From positions 163,059 to 227,058 of the forward strand of contig CAZIEY010000001.1 in NCBI GenBank assembly GCA_964538855.1: a DNA stretch of 64,000 bases, read 5' to 3'. The notes beneath the pieces are model-generated. The model made no database searches. It was not told the DNA's origin and was given only the letters and a program-made list of their open reading frames with translations. This document shows positions 146-64,000 of the stretch, in pieces (the first letter of the stretch is position 1; every line of letters begins with the position of its first letter). Position numbers and translations under genes: made by a program. Source of the DNA: an uncultured Candidatus Saccharibacteria bacterium. GTDB taxonomy: Bacteria > Patescibacteriota > Minisyncoccia > Phycocordibacterales > JAACPR01.

Positions 146-691
146 TTAACCATTATGACACATTCGGCGCATTTTGAAACTGAGGATAACTAAAAGGATT
201 ATAAACGCCGTCAACGACATCATCGGAATAGTCACATAGCCCAATTCCATCACGTAACGCTTGGTACACGAAATGCCCGCACCCAGGGCGTCGCATGCAA
301 ATAAATCGGCACCACCATAGTCAATATAATTGTGATAGAGCGCAATAACCGCACCCACGAGCGACAGCATCCACGCCACCGTATAAGCCCATATTTTTTG
401 AGTTCGCCACGCAATCACTAGGAAAATAATTTGTGGATACAAAAAGTATCTCTGGACCACACACAATATACACGGAGCAAATCCTGCGAAACGAGAATAA
501 AAGAGGCTGAGTACAATCCCGCCGAGCACAATTCCGATCGAGAGCAGGTCGGCACACTTCATCAACAGACGTGCCGGCGCGTGATCCGAATTTTTCCGAT
601 TCACAACGAAATAGACGAGGCCGACCACGAGCACAACATGCGACACCACCACCCCAATCGCAAGCACCATGTTTACAATAGAGAGTAACAT
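146..691 (-). CDS. DsbB-like disulfide bond formation protein (multi-pass membrane)
   Basis: 181 aa, 4-5 hydrophobic segments. Conserved CxLCxxQR motif (CILCVVQR) and a second Cys pair, typical of the DsbB/BdbC family. Confidence 0.6.
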   Translation of the reverse strand: MLLSIVNMVLAIGVVVSHVVLVVGLVYFVVNRKNSDHAPARLLMKCADLLSIGIVLGGIVLSLFYSRFAGFAPCILCVVQRYFLYPQIIFLVIAWRTQKIWAYTVAWMLSLVGAVIALYHNYIDYGGADLFACDALGAGISCTKRYVMELGYVTIPMMSLTAFIILLVILSFKMRRMCHNG

Positions 692-692
692 A

Positions 693-1076
693 TTATTCTG
701 GCAAAACGCAGGATGTTTTTTCGGCTAATGTGTCGAGCCTAACTTCCCCTTCTATGGTTTCACCGTCAGCAAAAATCCAGAATGGATAACCTTTCACACC
801 GGCGTCTTTACAAATTGGTAATTGCGACTGACCATCTGGAGTAGAGCATTCAACATAAGGAAGATTTTTGGCAGCTTTACCAAACATCCCTTTTTGTTTT
901 TGACAATGAGGACACCAGAATGCACCATAGAATTTTGCACCTTTATCGGTGAGACACTGTGCAAATTCATCGTATTTGCCAGGTTTTTTGTTTTCGACAA
1001 CAATAAAGGCGACTGCGGCCGCAATGACGAGTAGAGCGCCAAGCCACATGAGTTTTGTTTTGTTTTTTTCTGACAT
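693..1076 (-). CDS. Membrane-anchored thioredoxin-fold thiol-disulfide oxidoreductase (DsbA/BdbD-like)
   Basis: 127 aa with an N-terminal TM anchor and a WCPHCQ active-site motif. Sits immediately downstream of the DsbB-like gene. Confidence 0.65.
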   Translation of the reverse strand: MSEKNKTKLMWLGALLVIAAAVAFIVVENKKPGKYDEFAQCLTDKGAKFYGAFWCPHCQKQKGMFGKAAKNLPYVECSTPDGQSQLPICKDAGVKGYPFWIFADGETIEGEVRLDTLAEKTSCVLPE

Positions 1077-8528: not shown

Positions 8529-8620
8529 GCGGAGACGGAGGGATTCGAACCCTCGAGGCCCTTTTAATGGAGCCTACCTCTTTAGCAAAGAGGCACATTC
8601 GACCACTCTGACACGTCTCC
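8529..8620 (-). tRNA. tRNA-Ser (anticodon GCT)
   Basis: Cloverleaf inferred by eye. Acceptor GGAGACG/CGTCTCC. Anticodon stem CCTCT/AGAGG with loop TTGCTAA. Long variable arm. T-arm GAGGG-TTCGAAT-CCCTC. CCA not encoded. Confidence 0.8.
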
Positions 8621-12795: not shown

Positions 12796-12871
12796 TGCGC
12801 GTGTAGCTCAGTTGGTAGAGCGGTCGACTTATACTCGATTGGTCCCAGGTTCGAGTCCTGGCATGCGCACC
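12796..12871 (+). tRNA. tRNA with anticodon UAU (tRNA-Ile2-type, decoding AUA), CCA encoded
   Basis: 76 nt. Acceptor GCGCGTG/CATGCGC. D-arm GCTC-AGTTGGTA-GAGC. Anticodon stem GTCGA/TCGAT with loop CTTATAC. T-arm CCAGG-TTCGAGT-CCTGG. Followed by ACCA. Confidence 0.75.
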
Positions 12872-17954: not shown

Positions 17955-18326
17955 GGGGATGATCGGCTTCGATATACAATCGCCAATATATGTGCAGAAT
18001 AGAGCTCGAGTAACTCTTAAAAAGGCTCGAAACTACAAATGCAAAATCTGTCGTAAGCCCTTACTTTAAGGCAAACAAACTAGCATTCGCGTTCGCGTAA
18101 GCCAACACGACATCCGCGTATCTTACACCTGATACGATAAGGCGGGTGTTACCCCATCAGGTTAGGTGAAGTACACGCTCTTTGTACTTTTCCGAAACTC
18201 AAGGAGATCGGTCGCGCAACATTTCGTTCGCTCTAAGGTGCACGATCCAGAACAAAAAGCGTACTAGATTCTGTAGACTCATATATTGTCCTTGCATACA
18301 CGCGGGTTCGATTCCCGCCATCTCCA
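17955..18326 (+). ncRNA. ssrA: tmRNA (ssrA), one-piece; predicted tag ANKLAFAFA
   Basis: 5' end GGGGATGATCGGCTTCGA resembles the tmRNA 5' consensus. 3' T-arm GCGGG-TTCGATT-CCCGC and acceptor CATCTCC pair with 5' GGGGATG, including a G3-U70 pair. Resume codon GCA at 18071 and TAA at 18098 give the frame GCA AAC AAA CTA GCA TTC GCG TTC GCG. Confidence 0.8.
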
Positions 18327-18379
18327 CATTAAAAAGAAAATCACCCAACATTGGGTGATTTTCTTTTTAATGTGGAGAT
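18320..18379. repeat. Perfect inverted repeat with 29-bp arms and a 2-nt centre, overlapping the last nucleotides of ssrA
   Basis: atctccacattaaaaagaaaatcacccaa-ca-ttgggtgattttctttttaatgtggagat, verified base by base. Confidence 0.85.
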
Positions 18380-51951: not shown

Positions 51952-53142
51952 TTAGGCAATAACCTTTGTGATAACACCAGCTCCAACTGTTTTACCACCC
52001 TCTCGGATAGCAAAGTGTTGCTGATCTTCAAGTGCAACTGGACATACCAATTTCACTGTGAATGTTGCTGTATCTCCTGGCATAACCATTTCTACTCCCG
52101 CCTTCAAAGTAACATCTCCTGTTACGTCTGTAGTTCGCATGTAGAATTGTGGCTTGTAACCAGTGAAGAATGGTGTGTGACGACCTCCTTCTTCTTTCTT
52201 CAACACGTACACTTCAGCTTCAAATTCTGTGTGAGGTGTAACTGAACCTGGGAGACACAAAACCTGACCTCGGTGAACATCTTCTTTCTTCAAACCTCGG
52301 AGGAGGAGACCTGCGTTGTCGCCGGCGATTCCTTCTTGCAATTGTTTGTTGAACATTTCAATACCAGTCACAGTTGTCTTCATTGTAGGTTTGATACCAA
52401 CAAGTTCGATGTCTTGACCGATTTTGATTGAACCTCGTTCAATACGACCAGTAACTACAGTTCCTCGACCTTCGATTGAGAAAACGTCTTCAACTGGCAT
52501 GAGGAAAGGCTTAGCCAAATCTCGAACTGGTTCTGGAACATATGTGTCCAAAGCGTTGATAAGGTCGAGAATTTTCTTTGCCCATTCATCAGATGCAGAT
52601 GTTGCTTCGAGAGCTTTCAAAGCTGAACCTCGAATAACAGGAGCGTTTGAACCGTCGTAACCGTGTTTATCGAGCAATTCTCGAATTTCAGCTTCAACGA
52701 GTTCGATCATTTCTGCGTCGTCAACCATGTCGCATTTGTTAATAAAGACCACGATCTTTGGAACACCAATTTGTTTTGCAAGCAAAACGTGTTCACGAGT
52801 TTGTGGCATCATACCGTCTGTTGCAGCAACCACAAGAATAGCACCGTCCATTTGAGCGGCACCAGTAATCATGTTTTTGATGTAGTCGGCGTGACCTGGA
52901 GCGTCAATGTGCGCGTAGTGGCGAACATTTGATTCGTATTCCTGGTGAGACAATGAAATAGTAATACCTCGAGCTTTTGACTCTGGTGATTTATCAATTT
53001 CATCAACTGACTTCTTGCTGGCCATTTTTCCGTCCAATGCAAGGACGTTCAAAATAGCGGCAGTAAGAGTAGTCTTACCGTGGTCAACGTGACCGATGGT
53101 ACCGACGTTGACGTGCGGTTTGCTTCGATTAAATTCTGCCAT
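51952..53142 (-). CDS. tuf: Elongation factor Tu
   Basis: 396 aa with [18 protein letters not shown], and NKCD motifs. Confidence 0.95.
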
Positions 53143-53339
53143 TGTTTTTAAATTAATTTAATAAAGATTCTAAATAACTCTGTCTTGATTCTCTTCAGGG
53201 CGACCTTAGCAGAAGGCACGAGAACGCGAGCCTCTGCCCAGATCACCCTACCCATTTCCGATTTTTTGCAATACAAAAAAGCGCAAAATGCGTAGGAATT
53301 ATATTATCAGAGTTTTTCCGTGTTTGCAAATAAATATGA

Positions 53340-54080
53340 CTAAGAGAGAAGGCTCCAAATCATCTTAAACCAAGTGCGAAAGCTGTCGGCGACATTTTTA
53401 TTAATGATCACGGTTAGCGTCGCGTTCTCGTCGATAATTTGACCATTCACATTAGAAAAGATCACTACCCTATCCCCAAAAATGTCTATCGTTGAGTTAC
53501 TAGAAAATCCTTTAGGTAAAAATTTATGTGTACCTTGGCTTGTCTCTAAGACACTTGCAGGAATAGTCTCTTTGCTTCCATCAAACAGAATGTGAAATGA
53601 GAGTTTTTTAGCCTTAGCCTCTTTTACGAATTTTGCGAAAACTGTCTCGATTTTATTATCCGACCAAGCACCCTTCCCTCCAATAGTATACAAATCCTCT
53701 CCAACATTCAAAATATCCTGCATATAATTTTTCCACCCCTCTATACCTTTGTAAATGTAAACTGCCTCGGAGACAGGTTCCTCTATAAACATTGCCTGCA
53801 AATTGGGCATGATTTTATTCAAAGCTACTTCTTTTTCCTGAATCTTTTCTTTCAATTTATTCGGATTAACAGCGTTATACTTGTTCTCTTTTCCACCCTT
53901 AATTTCGAAGACAAGCCCTTTTTCTGTTAGACGGTTTAAGGAATCGTAAATATTTCGTCTGTGAATATCTGTGTGAATAGAAAGTTCCCCCACAGTTGAT
54001 TCACCCCATTTTAAGAGCGATTCATAGAGAATCGCCTCGTTTTTCGCTAAATCCAGTTGGGTCAAAATATGGCTGTACAT
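53340..54080 (-). CDS. TrmB-family transcriptional regulator
   Basis: N-terminal HTH (EAILYESLLKWGESTVGELSIHTDIHRRNIYDSLNRLTEKGLV) plus a TrmB C-domain. Confidence 0.7.
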   Translation of the reverse strand: MYSHILTQLDLAKNEAILYESLLKWGESTVGELSIHTDIHRRNIYDSLNRLTEKGLVFEIKGGKENKYNAVNPNKLKEKIQEKEVALNKIMPNLQAMFIEEPVSEAVYIYKGIEGWKNYMQDILNVGEDLYTIGGKGAWSDNKIETVFAKFVKEAKAKKLSFHILFDGSKETIPASVLETSQGTHKFLPKGFSSNSTIDIFGDRVVIFSNVNGQIIDENATLTVIINKNVADSFRTWFKMIWSLLS

Positions 54081-54155
54081 AAGGAAATTGTTGTTAAAAG
54101 TTAATTAAATTTGATGTGGTGGTATTTGCCACTCGTTTAACATAGCACAGAATAT

Positions 54156-55235
54156 ATGGGTAGTCAAATTAATCAAACCCATATGCAAAAACAACAAAAA
54201 TTCTTAGTGGCGGTATTGATCGTAGCGACTGTAGCAATATTGACCCTTAATTCTAAAGTGGATAATACAGAAAGTATTAAAATCGGAGTAATAAGCGACT
54301 TTACTGGTCCAGCAGCGTATTGGGGCGAATCTTCCAAAGTTGGTGTAAACGTCGCGGTTAAAGAGTTAAAGGCAGAAGGATACAACGTTGATGTGACTTT
54401 TGAAGATTACAAGCTTGATGCACCGCGAGCAGCGACAGCAGCACAGAAATTGTCGAACATTGATAAGGTCTCTGCGATATACTCAGAATTCAATCCCGGT
54501 GCGATTGCAGCAAACTCTGTTTTAAAAGATACAGATGTATTTCACATGTATCTCGCAGCGATTACTTCCCCACTTAAAGACAACCCAAATGCATACAAAA
54601 CATATTTGGACTATGAGGCGGGATGTAAATTAATTGCACAGGAATTCAAAAATAGCGGAGTTGCTAAAATCGGCGTACTAAAAGCGAATCAAGAATTTGG
54701 AGAATTGTGTTTAGATGGGGTACGAGAAATATACGGTGACAAAATTGTTTTGGACTCATACAACCTCGGTGATACCAACTTCAAAACTCAGTTGTTAAAA
54801 ATCAACGCAGAAAAAGTAGAGGCGGTCATTAATGTCGGTTTCGAAGGAGACACGTTCAACACCTTAAAAGTTATGAACGAATTGGGATACTCATTAAGAT
54901 TAGGGACCGTAGAAGACACTATGAGCGACAAAGTAAAAACTACTTTCCCTAACCAAATTAAAAATGCTCTTACTTTTGGTTTCCAAGAAGTAAACAAAGA
55001 ATTCGTTAAGAAAGTCACTGCGGAAAACGGTGGTAAGTCTCTCGCAAGCAATTATGCAGCAGCCGAAGCTTACACCCACATCAAGCAAATCGTTAAGGCT
55101 CTAGATGCGTGTGATGAAGGCGATATGGAATGTACTAAGAAGCACATTGACATGTCTGCGCCAGATACGACTTTTGGATTTAAAAAGTTCAATGGACGTA
55201 TCGCGGACATTGGGATGCAGATATATAAGTACTAA
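54156..55235 (+). CDS. LivK/Peripla_BP_6-type solute-binding protein, membrane-anchored, orphan
   Basis: TM anchor. KIGVISDFTGPAAYWGESSKVG and VTFEDYKLDAPRAATAAQKL motifs. Confidence 0.8.
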   Translation: MGSQINQTHMQKQQKFLVAVLIVATVAILTLNSKVDNTESIKIGVISDFTGPAAYWGESSKVGVNVAVKELKAEGYNVDVTFEDYKLDAPRAATAAQKLSNIDKVSAIYSEFNPGAIAANSVLKDTDVFHMYLAAITSPLKDNPNAYKTYLDYEAGCKLIAQEFKNSGVAKIGVLKANQEFGELCLDGVREIYGDKIVLDSYNLGDTNFKTQLLKINAEKVEAVINVGFEGDTFNTLKVMNELGYSLRLGTVEDTMSDKVKTTFPNQIKNALTFGFQEVNKEFVKKVTAENGGKSLASNYAAAEAYTHIKQIVKALDACDEGDMECTKKHIDMSAPDTTFGFKKFNGRIADIGMQIYKY

Positions 55236-55277
55236 GGTTTAAAGCAAAAAACCACCCTCTCGAGTGGTTTTTTGCTT

Positions 55278-56345
55278 TTACTGCAACTGCTCAACGACCC
55301 ATTCCCCGCCAACAAGATCATTATTCTCGTCAAATGAATAGGTACCCGTGTACCCCCTATAATTCATTTCTCGAACATACTTGTTCAAATCGTCACCAGA
55401 CTTTCCTTCACGCATAGCCTGAACTAACATCATTGTTCCATCATATGCACGATCTGCGTACGATCCAGGATATCGACCATACTCTTTCTTGAAATCTTCT
55501 CTGAATTTTTGGGAAGCTCCGGGAATAACTACATACACATTATCTTTTGCGGCCACATTAATTTTGCCATCTTCGTCATGCTTTTTGGCAATCTCTGTGG
55601 CAGCTAAAAATGGTAGACCTGGGTGCAATTCTTGCACCTTATTAATAATGACAGCTGTTGAAGTGTCGAAACCTGTAAATAGAACTGAGTCCGCGCCAGC
55701 ACTGATAGTCTTGCTAACAATTGTCTGAATATCTTGACCAGAAGCGCCGTATGGAATCCTCTCGGTGATGACAAGATTTGCTCCGGCATTTGAGATGGCC
55801 TTTTCAAAAGGCTGTATGTGACTGTCTCCCCAAGCCCCCTGCTCGAGCACTATAGCGACCTTTTTGGCGCCGGTCTTTTTCAACCATTCTGTTGCTGACC
55901 CTTCTTTCAAAGCGTTCTTTGGGGCACCGAACAAAAAATAATCACTCTCTCCTTCAACATGTTCTGAGGTATTCGCTGGGTTAAATGATACGATACGTTT
56001 CTCTTGGATAGAGTCCGCAGCAGCTGCCGAGAGAAAACTCCATGTCGGTCCGATAATAGCCGCAACATGATCAATGTCTACTAATTTACTAACCGCACTA
56101 ACAGTTTTAATTGGTTCTGTTCCATCATCTTCATAGACGACTTCTAGGGTGATGCCATCTTTTTTTAATACAGACTTTGCGAATTCGATACCGTCTTTTA
56201 TATTCTGACCATCAACTGCGGCCATACCGGTAAGCGAAAGTACGGCGCCGATTTTAACATCGTGCACTTCTCCTGAATAATTGTTTGAAATAATAAAACC
56301 GATGATAACGACTACGATTGCGACAATTGATAAGGTTTTTTTCAT
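55278..56345 (-). CDS. LivK/Peripla_BP_6-type solute-binding protein, membrane-anchored, orphan
   Basis: TM anchor. KIGAVLSLTGMAAVDGQN and VVYEDDGTEPIKTVSAVSKLV motifs. Confidence 0.8.
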   Translation of the reverse strand: MKKTLSIVAIVVVIIGFIISNNYSGEVHDVKIGAVLSLTGMAAVDGQNIKDGIEFAKSVLKKDGITLEVVYEDDGTEPIKTVSAVSKLVDIDHVAAIIGPTWSFLSAAAADSIQEKRIVSFNPANTSEHVEGESDYFLFGAPKNALKEGSATEWLKKTGAKKVAIVLEQGAWGDSHIQPFEKAISNAGANLVITERIPYGASGQDIQTIVSKTISAGADSVLFTGFDTSTAVIINKVQELHPGLPFLAATEIAKKHDEDGKINVAAKDNVYVVIPGASQKFREDFKKEYGRYPGSYADRAYDGTMMLVQAMREGKSGDDLNKYVREMNYRGYTGTYSFDENNDLVGGEWVVEQLQ

Positions 56346-56459
56346 AATTTATTTTTTACTATGCATATAACCATACGACACTTTTTTGTCTTTATCAACA
56401 TATTTTTATGATGAAAATATGATACACTACACTATGTAAATAAACGTTAAATTAACCAT

Positions 56460-57221
56460 ATGTCAGACACTATTGATAAAAACAAAGATATCAAGCAGGA
56501 GCTTTCTTCACTTGGAATGGACGAAAACGAAGCCACTGTATACCTCTCCCTCCTCAAATTAGGAGAAGTGGGTGCATCAAAAATAGTCAGAGACACAGGA
56601 CTTCATGGGCAAACTGTATATGACGCATTACACAAACTCGAGACAAAAAATTTGGTCAGGTTTAATTTAATCAAAGGTCGAAGGAAATTTATTTCGCAAA
56701 ACCCATCCATTCTCTTGAATTTGGTTAATAAGCAGCAACAGATCGTCGAAAGTGTTTTGAATAAGATAGAAAAAAGATTCTCGATCATCGACACAGACAA
56801 TATTGAGATAATAAAAGGTAAAGATTCTTTTGTTATTAACGAATTCAAAATGTTGCAGGAAGTTCCAAAAGGTAGTGAATTACTCATTCTCGGAGGCAGC
56901 GGAGATTCTTTCATCGCCAATTTTGGAAATAAGTTTAACGAATATGATTATCAGAGAACGAAAAAAGGTATCTCGGTAAAATATCTCGGAAGCGAGACGC
57001 AAAAGAAATATTTGACCGATTCTGTAGACAGCCGACACAACTTTGAATACCGGGTTATTCCGCAAGTGTTTTCTGGTGTCACAAATATCACTATTTTTAA
57101 GAATCACGCAATAGTTATATATCTCTTTGATGAAAACACGACTTCTATAGTCATTAGAAATAAAAAGATAGTCGAGAGTTATGAAGGATTTTTTGAAAGC
57201 TTGTGGGGTTTGGGAAAGTAG
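56460..57221 (+). CDS. TrmB-family transcriptional regulator
   Basis: HTH (EATVYLSLLKLGEVGASKIVRDTGLHGQTVYDALHKLETKNLV) plus a TrmB C-domain. Confidence 0.7.
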   Translation: MSDTIDKNKDIKQELSSLGMDENEATVYLSLLKLGEVGASKIVRDTGLHGQTVYDALHKLETKNLVRFNLIKGRRKFISQNPSILLNLVNKQQQIVESVLNKIEKRFSIIDTDNIEIIKGKDSFVINEFKMLQEVPKGSELLILGGSGDSFIANFGNKFNEYDYQRTKKGISVKYLGSETQKKYLTDSVDSRHNFEYRVIPQVFSGVTNITIFKNHAIVIYLFDENTTSIVIRNKKIVESYEGFFESLWGLGK

Positions 57222-57284
57222 TTAGTCAAAAGAAATAACTCACAACATGCGCGAAATGTTGCAGGAAATCTTGTCTGCTAATAA

Positions 57285-57427
57285 ATAAGCAAAATAAAAC
57301 ACCTCTAAAGAGGCTTTCGGAGGACACTTGGTTTCTCCCAATTAGTGTCCGAGAACGAACTGAAATTTCCTGAGAAGGAAATTTACAGTGTACTCTTTAG
57401 AGGTGTTTTATTTTGCTTATTTCAATT
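57285..57427. repeat. Perfect 30-bp inverted repeat with an 82-bp spacer that contains two internal hairpins (composite bidirectional terminator or MITE-like element)
   Basis: aaataagcaaaataaaacacctctaaagag ... ctctttagaggtgttttattttgcttattt. Internal hairpins ggacact/agtgtcc and gaaatttcc-tgagaa-ggaaatttc. Sits between convergent TrmB and rplL. Confidence 0.7.
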
Positions 57428-57815
57428 CAACCTTCGCACCAGCTTCTTCCAATTTCTTCTTGATCGCTTCAGCGTCTTCCTTCTTTACGCCAGCTTTCAA
57501 GTCTTTTGGAGCGCCATCAACGAGGTCTTTCGCTTCTTTAAGACCGAGTCCGAGAGCTTCCTTCACCACCTTAATAACGGCGATTTTTTGTGCGCCAGCG
57601 TCTTTGAGGTGGACGATGAAGTCAGTTTTTTCTTCACCAGCCGCAGCCGCAGCAACTGGAGCAGCCGCAGCCGCAACAGCGCTCACACCAAATTTCTTTT
57701 CTAATACTTTTACGAGTTCGTTTAATTCAAGAACGCTCATTGCTTCAATTTTTGAAACGAGGTCCTGGAATTTTGCAGGAACTTCAACTGCATCAACTTT
57801 TACTTCGTCTGCCAT
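57417..57815 (-). CDS. rplL: 50S ribosomal protein L7/L12
   Basis: 132 aa with an Ala-rich hinge and a C-terminal EAGAKVELK. Confidence 0.9.
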
Positions 57816-57860
57816 AAATTTGTTTAGATTTAATGAATTAATAATTTGAGTAAACCGTGA

Positions 57861-58349
57861 TTATGCTGTCTTTTTGTCCGCAATTGCCTGAAGACCAACA
57901 ACGAGGCCTTGAATTGGCGAATTGATAACGTTGACAAACATGCCACGCAATACATCGAGTGAAGGAATGAGAGCAATACCCTCGATTCCAGCTTTGTTCA
58001 TGAATGATTTTTCGAAAACTCCACCAACGATACTGATATTATCTTTGAATTTCTTTTGGAAGGCAAAGATTTCTCGAGCTGGTGCAGTTGCATCATCACC
58101 ATATACCAAAGCAAGTTCACCTGACATTTCTGGCAATGTTCCTGCGATTTTTGATTCGCCGAACGCCTTTTGAAGCAAGCTTTTCTTGGTGACAAAGTAA
58201 GTGACTTTGCTTTCGCGAAGTTTCTTACGAAGTTCCACTGTATCGGCCGCTTTCAAACCCTTGAAATTGACGAAGACTACAGACGCTTTGTCGGTAACTT
58301 CGTTCAATTTAACAAGAATGTCTTTCTTTTGTGCTTTTGTAAGTGCCAT
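57861..58349 (-). CDS. rplJ: 50S ribosomal protein L10
   Basis: 162 aa, MALTKAQKKDILVKL start. Confidence 0.9.
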   Translation of the reverse strand: MALTKAQKKDILVKLNEVTDKASVVFVNFKGLKAADTVELRKKLRESKVTYFVTKKSLLQKAFGESKIAGTLPEMSGELALVYGDDATAPAREIFAFQKKFKDNISIVGGVFEKSFMNKAGIEGIALIPSLDVLRGMFVNVINSPIQGLVVGLQAIADKKTA

Positions 58350-58690
58350 TTTGTTTCCGATTGTAACCCTTTAATAAAAAATCGACCATGTAAGGCAATG
58401 GTCGAGGAGTATTCACAACAATGCGCCGAAGCGTACTGTGATGTGAGACCTCGAGAGGGCTTATGCTGCAATGCTTTTTCAAGCTTTACCGCGCCTCTTG
58501 TCTTGAGCCTTACGAGAATTACTTTAGCAGAAATAAGGGTCAAAGTCAAAACTAAAAAGTCACACTTTGGAAAGTCTGGTTGGGCATTAACACGAAAAAA
58601 ATTATTACAGAGCGTGCATGATGTGACCCAAGGACCCTCCTCAAATTGTGACTTTTTAGTTTTGACTTAAACCAATTTTCTATATCCCTG
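58350..58690 (-). promoter_or_regulatory. rplJ 5' leader region (candidate L10-leader autoregulatory structure)
   Basis: 340-bp non-coding region upstream of rplJ containing a 21-bp long-range inverted repeat, agtcaaaactaaaaagtcaca ... tgtgactttttagttttgact. Confidence 0.35.
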
Positions 58691-58691
58691 A

Positions 58692-59870
58692 CTAGATCTC
58701 GTTCAGAGTACCTTTTTTAATACACGAAAGGAATTCCGACTGAACTATTCCAATTTGTTGTTCTTTATTTTCTGGATCAGGTGCAGATTCACAGACAATT
58801 TTGTACTTATTATTCGGCTCTACATCTTTAGATCCATCTTTGAGACCAGAGATATCACCCTTCATTTCACCTTGTTCGTTGTATATCTTACATACAGGTG
58901 TTGCAACAGGATCGATATTTTCCCAATTCAAACGACATGTCTCATCTGACTCGACAATGGGTTTGTTAAACGTCGCAGTAATACCTTTTACAAAGGAAGC
59001 TGATGGGCAGAACGCAGTTTGATCAGGAAATCCGGAAGCGCGGGCGGTTACCGAAATTTCACCCCTCAGTAATTTAACCAGATTCGTCGATGTCATTGTA
59101 ACGGCCGCGTTATTTGAATCATTAAAGACTGTACCATTAGAAAATACTGGGTGATTCCAAGTAAAATCATATCCATTGGAACTTGAACCATCTGGATCAA
59201 ATGCTGTCCAAACAATCATGTCGGTTCCGTTGCTGACTGCGACATTATCCTCGCGTGCAACACAAACCAATTTAAAATTAGGGTCAATATTTGTTGTTGT
59301 TCCTCCGTCAGGCCTATTGCTTCCTCCGCCGCCATTCTTATCTAAAGAACACTGCGCAGCTGCACCGCCTTGAGAACCAGGACATTCCCACGTAAATTCG
59401 GATGAAGTCTCTCCTCTATTAACAGATTCTCCTGGAGTAGAGCACGTATTTTTTGCTACCGAACAAACACCGTTCACTGCTGGTGCGGGAGTAGATTTTG
59501 TATATGTGTGTGTATTACCACAACTCAAGTATCGAGACCATGAATTTTTATTTTCTGCCCAAAATGCTCCAGCATCAGAGTTGTACATCCAGTCCATACG
59601 TTCTGTAAATTCAGCAGGTGTATCACAATATCCAGTACTTGGACCAGAAAATGAAATTGTTATATTCGATCCGGTGTTTGTCCAATTATTGAACACAACC
59701 GTACCAGTTGAATACGGATCAGCACCAGCAGGTCTAAAAACTTCGTAATTCCAAGTTTTTCCTCCCCATGAGCCAGAACAAGTATACGCATCTGCAGTAT
59801 GAGGATTAGTAAGTACTACGCACAATAGGGCCATAACAACCAGCGATGTAAATTTAAAAAGTTTGTTCAT
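58692..59870 (-). CDS. Secreted Cys-rich protein, family A (paralog of 61042-62424)
   Basis: Signal peptide MNKLFKFTSLVVMALLCVVLTNPHTADA. Shared motifs SCGNTHTYT, EFTWEC, ETCRLNWE, and a conserved C-terminal 60 aa (CKIYNE...GTLNEI). Confidence 0.6.
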   Translation of the reverse strand: MNKLFKFTSLVVMALLCVVLTNPHTADAYTCSGSWGGKTWNYEVFRPAGADPYSTGTVVFNNWTNTGSNITISFSGPSTGYCDTPAEFTERMDWMYNSDAGAFWAENKNSWSRYLSCGNTHTYTKSTPAPAVNGVCSVAKNTCSTPGESVNRGETSSEFTWECPGSQGGAAAQCSLDKNGGGGSNRPDGGTTTNIDPNFKLVCVAREDNVAVSNGTDMIVWTAFDPDGSSSNGYDFTWNHPVFSNGTVFNDSNNAAVTMTSTNLVKLLRGEISVTARASGFPDQTAFCPSASFVKGITATFNKPIVESDETCRLNWENIDPVATPVCKIYNEQGEMKGDISGLKDGSKDVEPNNKYKIVCESAPDPENKEQQIGIVQSEFLSCIKKGTLNEI

Positions 59871-59871
59871 A

Positions 59872-60981
59872 TTAGTTTTCAGTTAATGATTGCGAGTACC
59901 CAATAATTGCTCGATCTAAAACTTCTTTCATCGTTTTCTTTTCATTCACACCCAATGTAATGTCTTTTGATACTACATCCAAACCAGCGTTGAGAACCGC
60001 AATTGACTCTTGAACTTTGTCAGAGAAAAATAATGCTTTCGCCTCTGTCGCATATGCCGAAGTCAAATTCGGATTTATAGTAAGAGCGGTATCTGTTAAT
60101 TGTATCGCTTCGGCCAACACCTGATCTCTCTTTTGAATATACGTCGCCACACCTGCAACACCAGGTGAAATCTCTGTCATTTTTACATCAGCAAGTGCAA
60201 CATACACATTCGCCAATTTTGGATCTGCCTCGCTCGCATGAGTCAAAGCAACAATAGCTTCAGCAAATTTTTCTTGTGAAGCGTTGTGCAGACCAACCAT
60301 CAAATTTGCTTCTGCAACAAACCGGTGATTCGCTGATGTTTTTATCACTTCATTTGCCCTTGCAATCGCCGCATCAGTTTTACCTAATCGATACAACAAT
60401 TTCGCGAGATTGTACGATGCGAAATCGAGTTTTGAATCGATAGTGAGTGCCTTGGTATAATTAGCTTCTGCCTTTACAGTATCACCCATCAAATCGTAGG
60501 CATGCCCCAATCCGCTATATGCCACAGCGTTATTTGGATCAAGTGCAATTGATTTTTCATAAGCTGGAATTGCTTTTTCATAGTCCTGCATAATTTCATA
60601 TGCATAAGCCATCACGCGGTATGCGTTCGAATTATTTGCACTGATATCGAGAGCCTGATTCGCTGCTGCAATTGCCAAATTACCGTACTCCATTTCCTTG
60701 AATTCTAAGCTCCCCTTTTGAGCATACGCAGAAGCGAGTGCGATGAGCACATCCATCCGATACATATCAGATATGTTTTTCGTAAGCAAATCTTCTAGCT
60801 CTGAAATAGACAAGTCTACGTTTCCGTCATTGAATGATTCTTCGGCAGTATTTATTCTTTCAACCAAAACAGCTTCATCAATAAATTCGTGCTTAAATAC
60901 AAAAAACGAAAGAAGTATTGCGACAATGGCAGTCAAACCGAGCACAATCCAAATATATTTCTTACTGTGTAAAGTTTCCAT
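59872..60981 (-). CDS. TPR-repeat protein with N-terminal TM anchor (paralog of 62426-63541)
   Basis: 369 aa. TM segment then about 7 TPR units (AYSGLGHAYDLMGD..A...Y..AL.). Conserved SKDITLG motif near the C-terminus. Confidence 0.75.
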   Translation of the reverse strand: METLHSKKYIWIVLGLTAIVAILLSFFVFKHEFIDEAVLVERINTAEESFNDGNVDLSISELEDLLTKNISDMYRMDVLIALASAYAQKGSLEFKEMEYGNLAIAAANQALDISANNSNAYRVMAYAYEIMQDYEKAIPAYEKSIALDPNNAVAYSGLGHAYDLMGDTVKAEANYTKALTIDSKLDFASYNLAKLLYRLGKTDAAIARANEVIKTSANHRFVAEANLMVGLHNASQEKFAEAIVALTHASEADPKLANVYVALADVKMTEISPGVAGVATYIQKRDQVLAEAIQLTDTALTINPNLTSAYATEAKALFFSDKVQESIAVLNAGLDVVSKDITLGVNEKKTMKEVLDRAIIGYSQSLTEN

Positions 60982-61041
60982 TTTTGATAATTAATTTAAT
61001 AAATAAAGGTTGCTTAAATTATAGCACCTAAATAAAATTCA

Positions 61042-62424
61042 TTAAATTTCTATCAACGTCCCACTTTTCATACACGCAAGGTGCTCTGATTCCACAAAAC
61101 CTGTCGGTTGGGTCATTAATTCACAACCAATATAATATTTATTTCCAGGTGTGACTTCACGACTACCTGCTGGCAAACCTGAAATATTTTTAACCGAAAC
61201 ACCTTCTTCGTTATATATACTGCATTGAGAAGCAGACGGGGCTTTAGACCAAGTCAGGGTACATGTCTCATTCTCATCTACAATTGGTGGGTCCATTTCT
61301 ACGATAATTTCATCGACAAATTTTGCAGTAGGACAAATTATTGTGGGTGCTGGAACCACGAATGGATTCAGAATAGTAACCATGAGATTTATAAATGAGA
61401 CTGAATTAGGAGAAGTAATCTGAACAGTCTGACCATGTTGAGATTCCACGTCAAAAGGATCATTTGCCCCGTACATATCAAACCATGAAAATCCAAAATT
61501 AGCGGAGGAACTGCCTAATCCTTCTACTGACCAAGTAATTGGACTATTAACTTTTGCAACCAAAGGAGAAACGCGACAGACAGGATCAAAACCACCATCG
61601 TCGTAATCATCTTTATCCATGGAACACATGTCCAAATTTCCTGGAACCTCTCTGCCGTACGTATTACTGCCACGACAATTCCATAAAAATTCAGTAGTTG
61701 AATCAGGAACATATTCTAGATTACCCACACGACATTGATCCGGTTCGGTTCCACACTCACCAGGAATAAGCGGCTCTGGTGCAACTGAAGCAAAACAGCT
61801 TCTATCATAAAGCCTATTGGTGCCAGCGGCTTCGCAAATCCACATAGCACCCGCATTAGTTGGAAACGCTGGATTCGATCCTCTCAACGTACCGATGGCA
61901 CAAAAATCAATGTTTTCACTTCCTAAATATTGAGTAGTACCGTAACTATATGCAGCGGAATTCCGTCCACACATCGCATAGACAGGTGTTGGATTTTCAG
62001 GTATCTCGGGAATCACAGGGACTTGGACAATATCTCTTGTATACGTGTGAGTATTACCGCAACTCATAGCTAATGGATCCTGCCAACTACTCAGGCCCGA
62101 CGAGAGAAAATTGGGAATACGAGAATAAGCAAATGCCATATGAGTCACCATGGTGCTTGGTGATGCACAACTATTATCCAAGGCCAGGTTCGTACCAAAA
62201 AAGTTCATCACAACTTCGTACGTCGTGTTACCATATCCATAGGTTCCAAAATCATAACTACCATTTCTAAGATTGCCTGTTCCTCCCCCTACGATATCGT
62301 ACTGGAACGACCCATATACTGTCGAACCCATACAACGGATAGCAAATGTTGTTTTTGGGGCAAGAAAAATCATCGCAACAATGCACACAACATAAAGTAT
62401 ATTTTTATTAAGCAAAAATTTCAT
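61042..62424 (-). CDS. Secreted Cys-rich protein, family A (paralog of 58692-59870)
   Basis: Signal peptide. Motifs MSCGNTHTYT, EFLWNC, ETCTLTWS, C-terminal CSIYNE...GTLIEI. Confidence 0.6.
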   Translation of the reverse strand: MKFLLNKNILYVVCIVAMIFLAPKTTFAIRCMGSTVYGSFQYDIVGGGTGNLRNGSYDFGTYGYGNTTYEVVMNFFGTNLALDNSCASPSTMVTHMAFAYSRIPNFLSSGLSSWQDPLAMSCGNTHTYTRDIVQVPVIPEIPENPTPVYAMCGRNSAAYSYGTTQYLGSENIDFCAIGTLRGSNPAFPTNAGAMWICEAAGTNRLYDRSCFASVAPEPLIPGECGTEPDQCRVGNLEYVPDSTTEFLWNCRGSNTYGREVPGNLDMCSMDKDDYDDGGFDPVCRVSPLVAKVNSPITWSVEGLGSSSANFGFSWFDMYGANDPFDVESQHGQTVQITSPNSVSFINLMVTILNPFVVPAPTIICPTAKFVDEIIVEMDPPIVDENETCTLTWSKAPSASQCSIYNEEGVSVKNISGLPAGSREVTPGNKYYIGCELMTQPTGFVESEHLACMKSGTLIEI

Positions 62425-62425
62425 A

Positions 62426-63541
62426 TTATTTTTTAATTAAATTTTGATAATTTTTTGCGTAATCTTTCATACTAATCATCATGTTTTGTTTTTCTAGCGC
62501 GCCAAGAGTTATATCCTTACTGACAGCAGAGCTACCCTGCTGAATCGCGGCGAGAGCACCCACAAAATCACCTGACATTTGTAAAATTTTTGCTTTTGTA
62601 ATGTAAGCGACTGACAAATTCGGATTTAAACTGAGAGCTTTTTCTATCAAAGGAACCGCCTCTTGGATAAACAATTCGGTATTTTTAATAATTTGGTTTA
62701 TATCAGCATCTGGTCCATTCGATTCAATCATGGCAAATCGCACCTGCACAAGACCGACGTAATTATTCGCAAGGCGCTCATCTGCCTTAATGGCATTCTC
62801 AAAAGAAGTTTCGGCTTCACTTAATTTGTTTTCTCTAAGAGAAATTACACCCAATACATTGTAAGCTTCTGAGATGAACCTGTTGTTTTTAGAAAATTTG
62901 ACCGTTTGTTCCGCATACATTCGTGCATCGTCCATATCATTGTTTCTGACATAGACTCGGGCAAGATTTAAAAGAGCGTGATCTAAATCATTCTGTATAA
63001 GAAGAGCATGTTTATAGTTTTGTGCCGCTAACATCAAATCACCTTGTAAATCATATGCGTGGCCGAGATTGCTATACGCCATAGCATTATTCAGATCAAA
63101 TTCGATCGCCATTTCATAATAAGCAGTTGCGGCTGCATAGTCTTCTGAAATTTCGTGTGCATACCCCATCACTCGAGCGGCTTCAGAATTATTTGGATTC
63201 AATCGCAAAGCTTCTTCTAATAAAAGAATAGCTTTTGCCGCAGACTCTTTCTCGTCAAAATTCAAACTGCCCTGTTGAGAATAAAGAGTGGCGAGAGCAA
63301 TCAAAATACGCACTCGATCATCATTAGATAAATTCTGAGTGAGTATTTTTTCCAACGATTCAATAGAGGGATTTAAATCCCCGATTGCAAAATTTTCAGA
63401 AACTATTTGCATTTCCCGCTCTATTACAGCCTTACGAACAGGGGCAACGAAATAATACACAGAAACAGCTACCGCGCCAATAACTAACGCTCCTGTAATT
63501 ATAATGAGACGGGGCCGCAGTAAATTCATAAATGATACCAA
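62426..63541 (-). CDS. TPR-repeat protein with N-terminal TM anchor (paralog of 59872-60981)
   Basis: 371 aa, TM plus TPRs (AYSNLGHAYDLQGD), SKDITLG motif. Confidence 0.75.
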   Translation of the reverse strand: MVSFMNLLRPRLIIITGALVIGAVAVSVYYFVAPVRKAVIEREMQIVSENFAIGDLNPSIESLEKILTQNLSNDDRVRILIALATLYSQQGSLNFDEKESAAKAILLLEEALRLNPNNSEAARVMGYAHEISEDYAAATAYYEMAIEFDLNNAMAYSNLGHAYDLQGDLMLAAQNYKHALLIQNDLDHALLNLARVYVRNNDMDDARMYAEQTVKFSKNNRFISEAYNVLGVISLRENKLSEAETSFENAIKADERLANNYVGLVQVRFAMIESNGPDADINQIIKNTELFIQEAVPLIEKALSLNPNLSVAYITKAKILQMSGDFVGALAAIQQGSSAVSKDITLGALEKQNMMISMKDYAKNYQNLIKK

Positions 63542-63571
63542 GATTATATCACTTAAAAATTTACAGATGGA

Positions 63572-64000
63572 CTACTTCTTCACTTTTCCTGCTTTGATTT
63601 CTTCCGCAACGTTGTTTGGCACAACTTCGTAGTGATCAAATTCCATTGTAGATTGCGCGCGACCTTCTGTCATAGAACGCAATGTAGTTGTGTAACCGAA
63701 CATTTCTGAGAGAGGTACCTTTGAGTGGATGCAAGTAATGCCGTTTCCAATATCATCCATACCATCAATTTGAGCACGTTTTGATGACAAGTTACCTGTT
63801 ACGTCACCAGTGAATTTTTCTGGAGTTGTAACTTCAACTTTCATAATCGGTTCAAGAAGTACTGGCTTCGCTTTGAGAGCAGCTTCCCTGAACGCCATAG
63901 ATGCAGCCAATTTGAAGGCAATTTCTGAAGAGTCCACATCGTGATATGAACCGTCATACAATTCAACTGAAATATCTGTCATCTTGTAACCGGCAGACAC
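63572..64000 (-). CDS. fusA: Elongation factor G, C-terminal fragment (gene continues beyond the window end)
   Basis: Domains IV/V signature ([11 protein letters not shown]...G.V.GDL..RRG, TEGRA.S.MEF..Y). No start codon inside the window. Confidence 0.9.

What the first reader, a model, noticed from the sequence alone, without database searches (positions are those of the whole stretch)
58692..63541. Tandemly duplicated two-gene cassette (TM-anchored TPR protein plus exported Cys-rich protein) inserted between rplJ and fusA
Genes 62426-63541/61042-62424 and 59872-60981/58692-59870 are clear paralogous pairs. The TPR proteins share their architecture and an SKDITLG motif. The exported proteins share SCGNTHTYT and E-F-[TL]-W-[EN]-C motifs and a conserved C-terminal domain of about 60 aa with four Cys. 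The module sits inside what is normally the contiguous rplKAJL-rpoBC / str region. The combination of a membrane-tethered TPR scaffold with a disulfide-rich surface or secreted protein resembles adhesin, pilus-assembly or host-attachment systems of episymbiotic CPR bacteria. The DsbB/thioredoxin pair at the start of the window could service these proteins.
Basis: seen in the sequence. Interest (0 to 1): 0.6.

Follow-up and report, generated by a model that had tools for sequence, protein, structure and literature searches.

The report
Saccharibacteria TPR-plus-surface-protein gene pair, duplicated
Between the genes for elongation factor G and ribosomal protein L10, this Saccharibacteria (CPR) genome carries two old copies of an undescribed gene pair, a membrane-anchored TPR protein plus an exported, disulfide-rich protein with Ig-like domains, and the pair most likely forms a cell-surface display module.

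Summary
All four ORFs exist as described. T1/T2 are 40% identical (E 6e-75) and C1/C2 31% (E 2e-31). Every quoted motif is present.

The interpretation needs correcting in four ways:
- **Not an insertion peculiar to this genome.** The T-C pair occupies the same fusA-rplJ slot in every close related locus recovered. The two loci that carry an organism name are Saccharibacteria MAGs.
- **The duplication is old.** Slot-1 and slot-2 C proteins form separate clades across genomes.
- **The pairing is general.** More distant T homologues at other genomic positions are also followed directly by an exported Cys-rich protein.
- **T can be replaced.** Either slot can hold one long gene in which a beta-rich ectodomain and a two-helix membrane hairpin replace both T and the N-terminal "CGNTHTY" domain of C.

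Short C is preceded by T in 11 of 11 cases and long C in 0 of 4. T also co-varies more with C's N-domain (r 0.82) than with its tail (r 0.59).

My best reading is that T docks C's N-domain on the outer face of the membrane and so displays a module of 4-Cys repeats and two Ig-like domains. What that module binds is unknown.

C has no Pfam, NCBIfam or PDB sequence match. I found no support for a pilus-assembly role or a multi-copy variable family.

The parts
63543..63551 (-). Extended -10 promoter-like box TGATATAAT, 13 nt before the T1 ATG at 63529
   Evidence: Seen in the sequence. The same motif class precedes T or long-C genes in 15 of 18 spacers in related loci. The window holds 8 TGNTATAAT against 3.0 expected. 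Promoter function is inferred.
62426..63541 (-). T1: type-II membrane TPR protein. TM helix at about aa 12-32 (63446-63508), TPR ectodomain, SKDITLG near the C-terminus. The likely start is the ATG at 63529.
   Evidence: It is the most divergent member of the T family.
61042..62424 (-). C1, the slot-1 exported protein. Signal peptide aa 1-28; N-domain ending in CGNTHTYTR (about 62032-62340); two 4-Cys repeats (about 61615-61977); Ig-like domain (about 61315-61590); C-terminal Ig-like domain ending -LIEI (61045-61308).
   Evidence: No Pfam or NCBIfam match.
61018..61026 (-). Extended -10 promoter-like box TGCTATAAT, 36 nt before the T2 start
59872..60981 (-). T2: type-II membrane TPR protein. 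TM helix at about aa 10-29 (60895-60954), TPR ectodomain, SKDITLG.
58692..59870 (-). C2, the slot-2 exported protein. Signal peptide (59787-59870); N-domain ending in CGNTHTYTK (59493-59786); one 4-Cys repeat (59343-59474); G/N-rich linker; Ig-like domain (58995-59279); C-terminal Ig-like domain ending -LNEI (58695-58988).
   Evidence: AF2 model with mean pLDDT 74. Fold searches.
58538..58673 (-). Long hairpin (47-nt arms, 42-nt loop) just after the C2 stop. It is the probable end of the T2-C2 transcription unit.
   Evidence: z-score -5.5 for the 351-nt spacer. A hairpin follows the last C gene in seven related loci.

Best explanation
The region holds two old paralogous copies of a two-gene cell-surface module found in a clade of Saccharibacteria.

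**T** is a single-pass membrane protein. By the positive-inside rule its N-terminus is inside the cell and its roughly 330-aa TPR domain is outside. **C** is exported through Sec with a cleaved signal peptide and folds with the help of disulfide bonds. It has four parts: (i) an N-terminal alpha/beta domain ending in the invariant motif CGNTH; (ii) one to three 4-Cys repeats; (iii) a flexible G/N-rich linker; and (iv) two Ig-like beta-sandwich domains.

I propose that the TPR ectodomain of T binds the N-domain of C non-covalently. This would hold C on the outer face of the membrane and project the repeat-and-Ig part outward as the working end, probably as a binding or adhesion surface in this episymbiotic organism. 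Each pair appears to have its own extended -10 promoter, and the T stop lies one base before the C start, which suggests the two proteins are made together.

**Shown here:** paralogy, domain architecture, conserved gene pairing, either-or replacement of T plus N-domain by a built-in membrane hairpin, and Ig-like folds.

**Inferred:** topology, the T-C contact, surface display, and any ligand.
For: 1. **T is always followed by C.** This holds in the window (twice) and in L002, L003, L005, L007 (twice), L009, L010 (twice) and L013. The gap is 1-10 nt.
2. **The pairing survives a change of genomic context.** Examples are L014 (after gyrB), L015 (beside pheST), L017 (beside smpB/ftsH) and L018 (fusA...rplJ). 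In each, the next gene encodes a signal peptide, many Cys and a C-terminal domain with the same Cys/Trp pattern. hhalign gives E 3e-4 for L015, and L017 has two 4-Cys repeats at E about 1e-15.
3. **T and the N-domain are replaced together.** Four long forms of 902-953 aa (L009 slot 2, L012 slots 1 and 2, L013 slot 1) keep the repeats and both Ig domains. They lack the CGNTH N-domain, have two hydrophobic helices at about residues 400-465, and have no T gene in front. Short C is preceded by T in 11 of 11 cases and long C in 0 of 4; my own exact test gives about 7e-4.
4. **T co-varies more with the N-domain.** Across 11 pairs, T distances correlate with the partner's N-domain at r = 0.82 (partial 0.80) and with its C-terminal 185 aa at r = 0.59 (partial 0.50).
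5. **Topology.** Every T has two basic residues just before the TM helix and a neutral or acidic stretch after it.
7. **Repeat context.** The 4-Cys repeat recurs in giant proteins that carry Big_7, Big_3 or LRR domains, which are typical of surface proteins.
8. **Disulfide machinery.** A DsbB and thioredoxin-fold pair is encoded in the same window.
Against: - No direct evidence of a T-C contact. A complex could not be modelled because the structure jobs were capped and take single chains only.
- The co-variation test uses 11 related pairs and is not independent of phylogeny.
- Topology rests on the positive-inside rule alone.
- The either-or pattern covers one locus per genome. A T gene elsewhere in the L012 genome cannot be excluded.
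- The N-domain has no fold or sequence match, so a role other than docking is open. It carries an invariant Cys that looks unpaired: the N-domain has 3 or 1 Cys and the rest of the protein always has an even number.
- The Ig-like matches are generic (7-22% identity), and no ligand or host is known.
- The invariant C-terminal -EI of close members is unexplained and is absent from distant pairs.
Confidence: 0.45

Rival explanations
1. T is an extracytoplasmic chaperone or holdase, not an anchor. The membrane-tethered TPR domain would hold newly exported, still-reduced C until its 6-10 disulfides form. This resembles CcmI/CycH, which holds apocytochrome c. C would then be released.
For: TPR domains often bind unfolded or extended clients. 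T1 scores 37.7 bits on PF23914 (TPR_CcmH_CycH, cut-off 42), and that family is listed for many T homologues. Gene spacing is tight. The client is Cys-rich and DsbB is present.
Against: The long forms keep all the Cys-rich repeats and Ig domains yet have no T gene in front. T co-varies with the Cys-poor N-domain more than with the Cys-rich tail. The CcmH/CycH score is below its cut-off and is generic TPR similarity.
Confidence: 0.2
2. The N-domain of C is a catalytic or covalently reactive domain that uses the invariant unpaired Cys, and perhaps the His, of CGNTH. The pair would then be an enzyme or covalent-adhesion device acting on the cell wall or the host surface, with T as its regulator or platform.
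For: CGNTH is invariant in all 13 short forms. The other two N-domain Cys are present together or absent together, which implies a disulfide. The rest of the protein always has an even Cys count, so the motif Cys is the odd one out. T ectodomains contain no Cys, so this is not a T-C disulfide.
Against: There is no Pfam, NCBIfam, PADLOC or PDB-sequence match and no fold match reported for this domain. The His is not kept in distant partners (CGNYN, CGNRD, CGNAI). Cys and His four residues apart is not a known catalytic arrangement (my own knowledge). The odd Cys could instead form a dimer disulfide.
Confidence: 0.15
3. The pair is part of a type IV pilus or other secretion or assembly apparatus, with T as a PilF/PilW-like assembly factor.
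For: There are weak sub-threshold NCBIfam matches to PilW, Tgl and GltE. Type IV pili are important in Saccharibacteria (PMC11623550 and PMC9894109, listed).
Against: Every score is far below its cut-off: PilW 49.6 against 154, PrsT 66 against 312, Tgl 34 against 225. There are no pilin, ATPase or platform genes in any of the roughly 18 loci. C has a type-I signal peptide, not a prepilin leader.
Confidence: 0.05
4. There is no functional link. The four genes are fast-evolving hypothetical genes that happen to sit in a permissive intergenic hotspot between two ribosomal-protein operons.
For: The fusA-rplJ and rplL-tuf junctions do collect unrelated genes, including mazEF, TrmB with solute-binding proteins, and PG_binding proteins.
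Against: T-C adjacency holds in every locus where it can be seen, including four outside the fusA-rplJ slot. The 1-nt junction is conserved. T has long invariant blocks such as LASAYAQKGSLEFKE, AYRVMAYAYEI and GLGHAYDL. Mantel tests give p 2e-4.
Confidence: 0.05

Closest known systems
Intimin/invasin-type bacterial adhesins (tandem Big/Ig-like domains that project a binding tip)
   Different: There is no Pfam Big_1/Big_2 match and no beta-barrel anchor or LysM. The organism is presumably monoderm (my knowledge of Saccharibacteria, not tested here). The anchor would be a separate TPR protein or a TM hairpin. The Ig-domain similarity is generic, since Fc receptors score equally well.
CcmI/CycH, the membrane-anchored TPR chaperone of cytochrome c maturation
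   Same: Both have an N-terminal membrane anchor and an extracytoplasmic TPR domain that acts on a Sec-exported, Cys-containing partner. T gives a near-threshold Pfam PF23914 match (37.7 bits against 42).
   Different: The score is below the cut-off. No ccm genes or CXXCH motif are present. The partner is encoded right next to T and co-varies with it. Long forms do without T.
TPR receptors that dock a partner through a short terminal signal (PEX5-PTS1, Hop-EEVD, BamD and the OMP C-terminal signal)
   Same: The idea is the same: a TPR groove recognises a defined element of a client. Close C family members end in an invariant -E-I-COOH (12 of 12).
   Different: The -EI end is not kept in distant T-C pairs. 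The long forms keep -EI but have no T gene in front. So the docking element, if there is one, is more likely the N-domain. This comparison comes from my own knowledge and was not tested structurally.
Known surface-anchoring routes of monoderm bacteria (sortase/LPXTG, lipoproteins, LysM/SLH/GW wall-binding modules)
   Same: The outcome would be the same: an exported protein retained at the cell surface.
   Different: C has no LPXTG or C-terminal TM segment, no lipobox, and no wall-binding Pfam domain. The first Cys co-varies with a second Cys, as expected for a disulfide partner. Retention through a dedicated TM-TPR partner would be a different route.

Membership tests
TPR repeat proteins (Pfam TPR_1, TPR_2 and related) | Several 34-residue helix-turn-helix repeats scoring above the Pfam gathering cut-offs | tested here: met
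   T1 scores 68.9 bits and T2 74.6 bits on TPR_1 (cut-off 27.8). Many other TPR models are also above cut-off.
Type IV pilus biogenesis TPR protein PilW/PilF (TIGR02521) | Score at or above the NCBIfam cut-off of 154 bits; lipoprotein; pilus gene neighbourhood | tested here: not met
   T1 scores 49.6 bits. There is no lipobox and no pilus genes in any locus.
PEP-CTERM system TPR protein PrsT (TIGR02917) | Score at or above 312 bits; about 900 aa; exosortase neighbourhood | tested here: not met
   66.4 bits over about 160 residues. T is about 370 aa, and there is no exosortase or PEP-CTERM.
CcmI/CycH apocytochrome c chaperone (PF23914 TPR_CcmH_CycH) | Score at or above 42 bits; ccm gene context; a cytochrome c client | tested here: not met
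   T1 scores 37.7 bits and T2 21.4 bits. No ccm genes are nearby.
Sortase-anchored LPXTG surface proteins | C-terminal LPXTG motif followed by a hydrophobic helix and a basic tail | tested here: not met
   C1 and C2 end in ...SGTLIEI and ...KGTLNEI, with no hydrophobic C-terminal segment.
Bacterial lipoproteins | A lipobox [LVI][ASTVI][GAS]C at the end of the signal peptide | tested here: not met
   The cleavage regions are TTFA|IRC and HTADA|YTC. The first mature Cys is lost together with a second Cys in three family members, as expected for a disulfide pair.
Bacterial Ig-like domain adhesins (Big_1/Big_2, intimin/invasin) | A Pfam Big-domain match; a tandem Ig-like fold | tested here: inconclusive
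Thioester-domain (TED) covalent adhesins | A TED fold with a Cys-Gln thioester pair | tested here: not met
   No Pfam match of any kind for C1 or C2. The motif is C-G-N-T-H with no Gln partner. The geometry could not be inspected.
Anti-phage defence systems (PADLOC) | A match to a PADLOC model | tested here: not met
   Only two weak generic TPR hits for T2 (E about 1e-3) and none for C.
Multi-copy variable surface-protein family | Many paralogues per genome | tested here: not met
   There are no further T or C copies in the 64-kb window. Related loci carry one or two copies. The rest of this genome could not be searched directly.
The T-C module defined here (provisional) | (a) A TM-TPR protein with the LASAYAQKGS.EFKE, AYR..[AG]YAYEI, GH.YDL and DITL blocks. 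(b) Directly downstream, a Sec-exported protein with an N-domain ending in CGN, at least one Cys-rich repeat, and a C-terminal C.L.W...C.I...Y.I.C Ig-like domain. | tested here: met
   Both window pairs meet (a) and (b).

The most novel reading that the evidence does not exclude
T-C is a new way of holding proteins on the surface of a wall-poor, monoderm CPR bacterium. A dedicated transmembrane TPR 'dock' would non-covalently capture a novel N-terminal docking domain, one that carries an invariant reactive Cys, on an exported Ig-domain protein. The dock-plus-plug is evolutionarily interchangeable with a built-in membrane hairpin. The two old paralogous slots would encode two distinct host- or substrate-recognition proteins needed for the episymbiotic lifestyle.
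Probability: 0.3. Interest if true: 0.7.

Novelty: new variant of a known kind. Interest (0 to 1): 0.5.

Why it matters
Saccharibacteria live attached to other bacteria. Apart from type IV pili and a few adhesins identified by Tn-seq (PMC10633639, PMC11623550), little is known about which proteins sit on their surface or how they are held there.

This work defines a conserved, syntenic and apparently undescribed two-gene module. Its evolutionary pattern gives a concrete hypothesis for experiments: T plus the N-domain is interchangeable with a built-in membrane anchor, which points to the TPR ectodomain binding the CGNTH domain.

It also flags two sequence elements that have no Pfam model: the CGNTH N-domain and the widespread 4-Cys repeat. 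The fixed position between fusA and rplJ makes the locus easy to find in new Saccharibacteria genomes and useful for comparing surface-protein repertoires.

Tried and rejected
- **Word-index homology searches for C.** C1 alone returned only itself among 5.8 billion proteins. The 12-sequence C-terminal alignment returned nothing. The family appeared only in the exhaustive HMM search.
- **The search for related loci with alignment A2.** A3 worked through the CGNTH pattern but recovers only members that have that motif.
- **AF2 of C1 with a 2-sequence alignment.** Unusable, with pLDDT 36.
- **afdb50 fold search.** Not available.
- **PDB and viral fold searches.** Only generic Ig, FN3, Big or Hoc hits, and nothing for the N-domain.
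- **C-terminal -EI as the TPR-binding signal** (PEX5/Hop-like). This was my first idea. I dropped it because distant T-C pairs lack -EI and the long forms keep -EI although no T gene precedes them.
- **The module as a 3' appendage of the rpsL-rpsG-fusA operon.** I considered this because the fusA-T1 spacer is only 30-42 nt. I then revised it. Relatives have a terminator hairpin after fusA and an extended -10 box before T, and the window keeps the -10 boxes.
- **Other checks.** The lipoprotein, sortase-substrate, pilus-assembly, defence-system and PrsT/PEP-CTERM readings all failed their tests.
- **Literature.** Four full-text searches found no description of this pair. The Southlakia Tn-seq paper does not mention TPR or cysteine in its main text, and I did not search its supplementary tables.
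Full report
**1. What is in the window**

Reading the minus strand from 64000 downward, the order is as follows:
- the EF-G C-terminus (63572-64000)
- T1 (62426-63541)
- C1 (61042-62424)
- T2 (59872-60981)
- C2 (58692-59870)
- a 342-nt spacer
- rplJ (57861-58349) and rplL (57417-57815)
- a TrmB / solute-binding / solute-binding / TrmB block (53340-57221)
- tuf (51952-53142), followed by the S10 operon

T1 and T2 are 40% identical over 347 residues (E 6e-75). C1 and C2 are 31% identical over 304 residues (E 2e-31), plus 27% over the N-terminal 132 residues. In both pairs the T stop and the C start are one base apart, and the junction sequence itself is repeated (family D7).

**2. The proteins**

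*T proteins.* T1 and T2 match only TPR models and have one N-terminal hydrophobic helix. Scores for named TPR families are all far below their cut-offs: PilW 49.6 against 154, PrsT 66 against 312, and CcmH/CycH 37.7 against 42.

In an alignment of 12 T proteins, every sequence has two basic residues just before the helix and a neutral or acidic stretch after it. By the positive-inside rule the TPR domain should lie outside the cell. The family also has long invariant blocks that go well beyond a generic TPR signature: LASAYAQKGSLEFKE, AYRVMAYAYEI, GLGHAYDL and DITL.

*C proteins.* C1 and C2 have Sec signal peptides with cleavage sites TFA|I and ADA|Y. They match nothing in Pfam, NCBIfam, PADLOC or the PDB sequence set.

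**3. Finding relatives**

The word-index search found only C1 itself. An exhaustive profile search of 1.84 billion representatives gave 90 hits. About eleven clusters are true family members. The rest match only a repeat of about 50 residues with four Cys (C..C..W.C.G..GG....C). That repeat occurs up to 33 times in giant proteins carrying Big_7, Big_3 or LRR domains and has no Pfam model.

The family architecture is:
1. a signal peptide;
2. an N-domain ending in the invariant CGNTH[TI][YF][ST][RK];
3. one to three 4-Cys repeats;
4. a G/N-rich linker;
5. two C-terminal domains, the second ending in ...SC[IV]K.G.L.EI.

All 12 aligned members end in -EI.

**4. Genomic context elsewhere**

Pattern scans and exact look-ups gave 17 further loci. 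Two carry an organism name, and both are Candidatus Saccharibacteria MAGs. The window's L10 is 72% identical to that of one of them.

Gene order between fusA and rplJ:

| Locus | Order |
|---|---|
| window | T C T C |
| L007 / L008 | T C T C |
| L010 | T C T C |
| L013 | C' T C |
| L009 | T C C' |
| L012 | C' C' |
| L002, L003 | T C |
| L005 | T C (contig ends) |
| L004, L006 | C then rplJ |
| L011 | C T (contig ends) |

So the module is a fixed feature of this slot in the lineage and was not inserted into this genome alone. rplJ-rplL themselves lie between fusA and tuf here.

Neighbour-joining trees of the C tails separate slot-1 from slot-2 proteins across genomes. The duplication therefore predates the divergence of these genomes. 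I found no other T or C copies in the window.

**5. The long forms**

C' proteins are 902-953 aa long. They match the C profile only from just after the N-domain to the end. They have no detectable N-domain or T similarity. They carry two hydrophobic helices at about residues 400-465, separated by a short basic loop. Their roughly 400-aa N-terminal ectodomains are homologous to one another at 24-72% identity.

None of the four long forms has a T gene in front. All eleven short C genes whose upstream neighbour is visible do have one. My exact test on that 11/0 against 0/4 table gives about 7e-4. T and the CGNTH N-domain are thus gained or lost together and can be replaced by a built-in membrane anchor, while the repeat-and-Ig part is kept. 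This is the main argument for two conclusions: T's partner is the N-domain, and T's role is tethering rather than folding of the Cys-rich parts.

A mirror-tree test across 11 pairs points the same way. T correlates with the N-domain at r = 0.82 (partial 0.80) and with the C tail at r = 0.59 (partial 0.50). The sample is small and not phylogenetically independent.

**6. More distant T homologues**

The T2 search found about 30 full-length T clusters. Five of the more distant ones were looked up.
- In L014 (after gyrB), L015 (beside pheST), L017 (beside smpB/ftsH) and L018 (fusA...rplJ), the gene directly after T again encodes a signal peptide, many Cys and a C-terminal domain with the same C.L.W...C.I...Y.I.C pattern.
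- hhalign gives E 3e-4 for L015 and 0.03 for L014.
- The L017 partner has two clear 4-Cys repeats at E about 1e-15.
- L016 is ambiguous: a Cys-rich ORF follows only after 500 nt.

The pairing therefore survives relocation, which argues for functional coupling. These distant partners have CGN but not the His, and their C-termini are acidic rather than -EI. For that reason I dropped my first idea that the TPR domain clamps the -EI carboxy-terminus.

**7. Cysteine bookkeeping**

In all 13 short forms, the part of the protein after the N-domain has an even number of Cys (10-20). The N-domain has either three or one. The two variable N-domain Cys (C31 and C82 in C2) are present together or absent together, which implies they form a disulfide. 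The invariant Cys of CGNTH is therefore the odd one out.

T ectodomains have no Cys, so this is not a T-C disulfide. A free or reactive thiol, a metal site or a dimer disulfide all remain possible. This observation is unexplained, and it is the basis of the enzyme/covalent rival.

**8. Expression signals**

TGATATAAT lies 13 nt before the T1 ATG at 63529, and TGCTATAAT lies 36 nt before the T2 start. The same extended -10 class (TGnTAnA[AC]T) occurs in 15 of 18 spacers in front of T or C' genes in the related loci. In several of the fusA-proximal spacers (for example L002, L003, L007, L009, L012 and L013) it follows a clear terminator hairpin after fusA. The window has 8 TGNTATAAT sites against 3.0 expected.

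After C2 there is a very stable hairpin with 47-nt arms (58538-58673). A hairpin follows the last C gene in seven related loci. rplJ then has a sub-threshold L10-leader match (23.8 bits against 44) with an attenuator-like hairpin.

Each T-C pair therefore looks like its own transcription unit. In this window alone, the terminator after fusA is missing, so read-through from fusA is possible.

**9. Verdict**

The region holds an old, lineage-wide pair of T-C modules.

I am confident (about 0.85) that T and C work together outside the cytoplasmic membrane. I am moderately confident (0.45) in the specific mechanism, in which the TPR ectodomain docks the CGNTH N-domain and displays an Ig-domain binding module.

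Rivals are a chaperone role for T (0.2) and a catalytic or reactive N-domain (0.15). Pilus assembly and mere coincidence are unlikely (0.05 each).

I found no description of the pair in the literature searches, and no curated family covers C. I rate it as a new variant of a known kind, namely modular Ig-domain surface proteins with an accessory TPR partner, and of moderate interest.

Noticed in passing
window 63543-63551 and 61018-61026 (minus strand); related loci L002-L015: Extended -10 boxes (TGnTATAAT) sit just upstream of T1 and T2. The same motif class is in 15 of 18 spacers before T or long-C genes in relatives, in several cases after a fusA terminator hairpin. The window lacks that terminator after fusA.
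   Followed up: partly
window 58538-58673: An unusually long inverted repeat (47-nt arms, 79% complementary, 42-nt loop) between C2 and rplJ. The 351-nt spacer folds at -112.7 kcal/mol (z -5.5). The arms occur nowhere else in the window. Relatives have much shorter hairpins at the same place.
   Followed up: partly
window 58368-58525 (minus strand): A sub-threshold but full-length match to the ribosomal protein L10 leader (RF00557, 23.8 bits against a gathering score of 44). A terminator-like hairpin plus T-run at 58382-58405 lies just before rplJ.
   Followed up: no
window 51952-58349; L003, L006, L009, L012: rplJ-rplL lie between fusA and tuf in these Saccharibacteria, not upstream of rpoBC. 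In the window and in L009, a block of TrmB-like regulators and branched-chain/urea-type solute-binding proteins (window 53340-57221, itself two paralogous pairs) is wedged between rplL and tuf. L007, L013 and L018 have a PG_binding_1 protein there instead.
   Followed up: partly
window 146-691 and 693-1076 (minus strand): Adjacent DsbB (PF02600, E 3e-11) and thioredoxin-fold (PF00085, E 2e-6) genes. The organism therefore encodes candidate machinery for extracytoplasmic disulfide formation, which fits its Cys-rich exported proteins.
   Followed up: partly
C1 aa 150-270 and C2 aa 133-176; proteins P0003, P0009, P0015-P0090: A 4-Cys repeat of about 50 residues (C..C..[YW].W.C.G..GG....C) has no Pfam model. 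It occurs in about 80 protein clusters, with up to 33 copies in a 3421-aa protein that also has Big_7 and Big_3 domains, and alongside LRR or subtilase domains.
   Followed up: partly
C family N-domain (C2 Cys117, C1 Cys122): The Cys of the invariant CGNTH motif is the only Cys without an evident partner in all 13 short family members. The N-domain has 3 or 1 Cys, and the rest of the protein always has an even number.
   Followed up: partly
C family C-terminus (window 58695-58700 and 61045-61050): All 12 close family members, including the long forms, end in exactly -Glu-Ile-COOH after SC[IV]K.G.L. Distant T-partnered proteins do not. I have no explanation for this.
   Followed up: partly
L009 391-989: A mazE/pemK toxin-antitoxin pair sits between rpsG and fusA in one relative. 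This is another sign that the junctions of this ribosomal gene cluster tolerate insertions.
   Followed up: no
window 17955-18329, 12797-12869, 8530-8620: A tmRNA gene (96.6 bits) and two tRNA genes. These were the only Rfam matches above the gathering score in the window.
   Followed up: no
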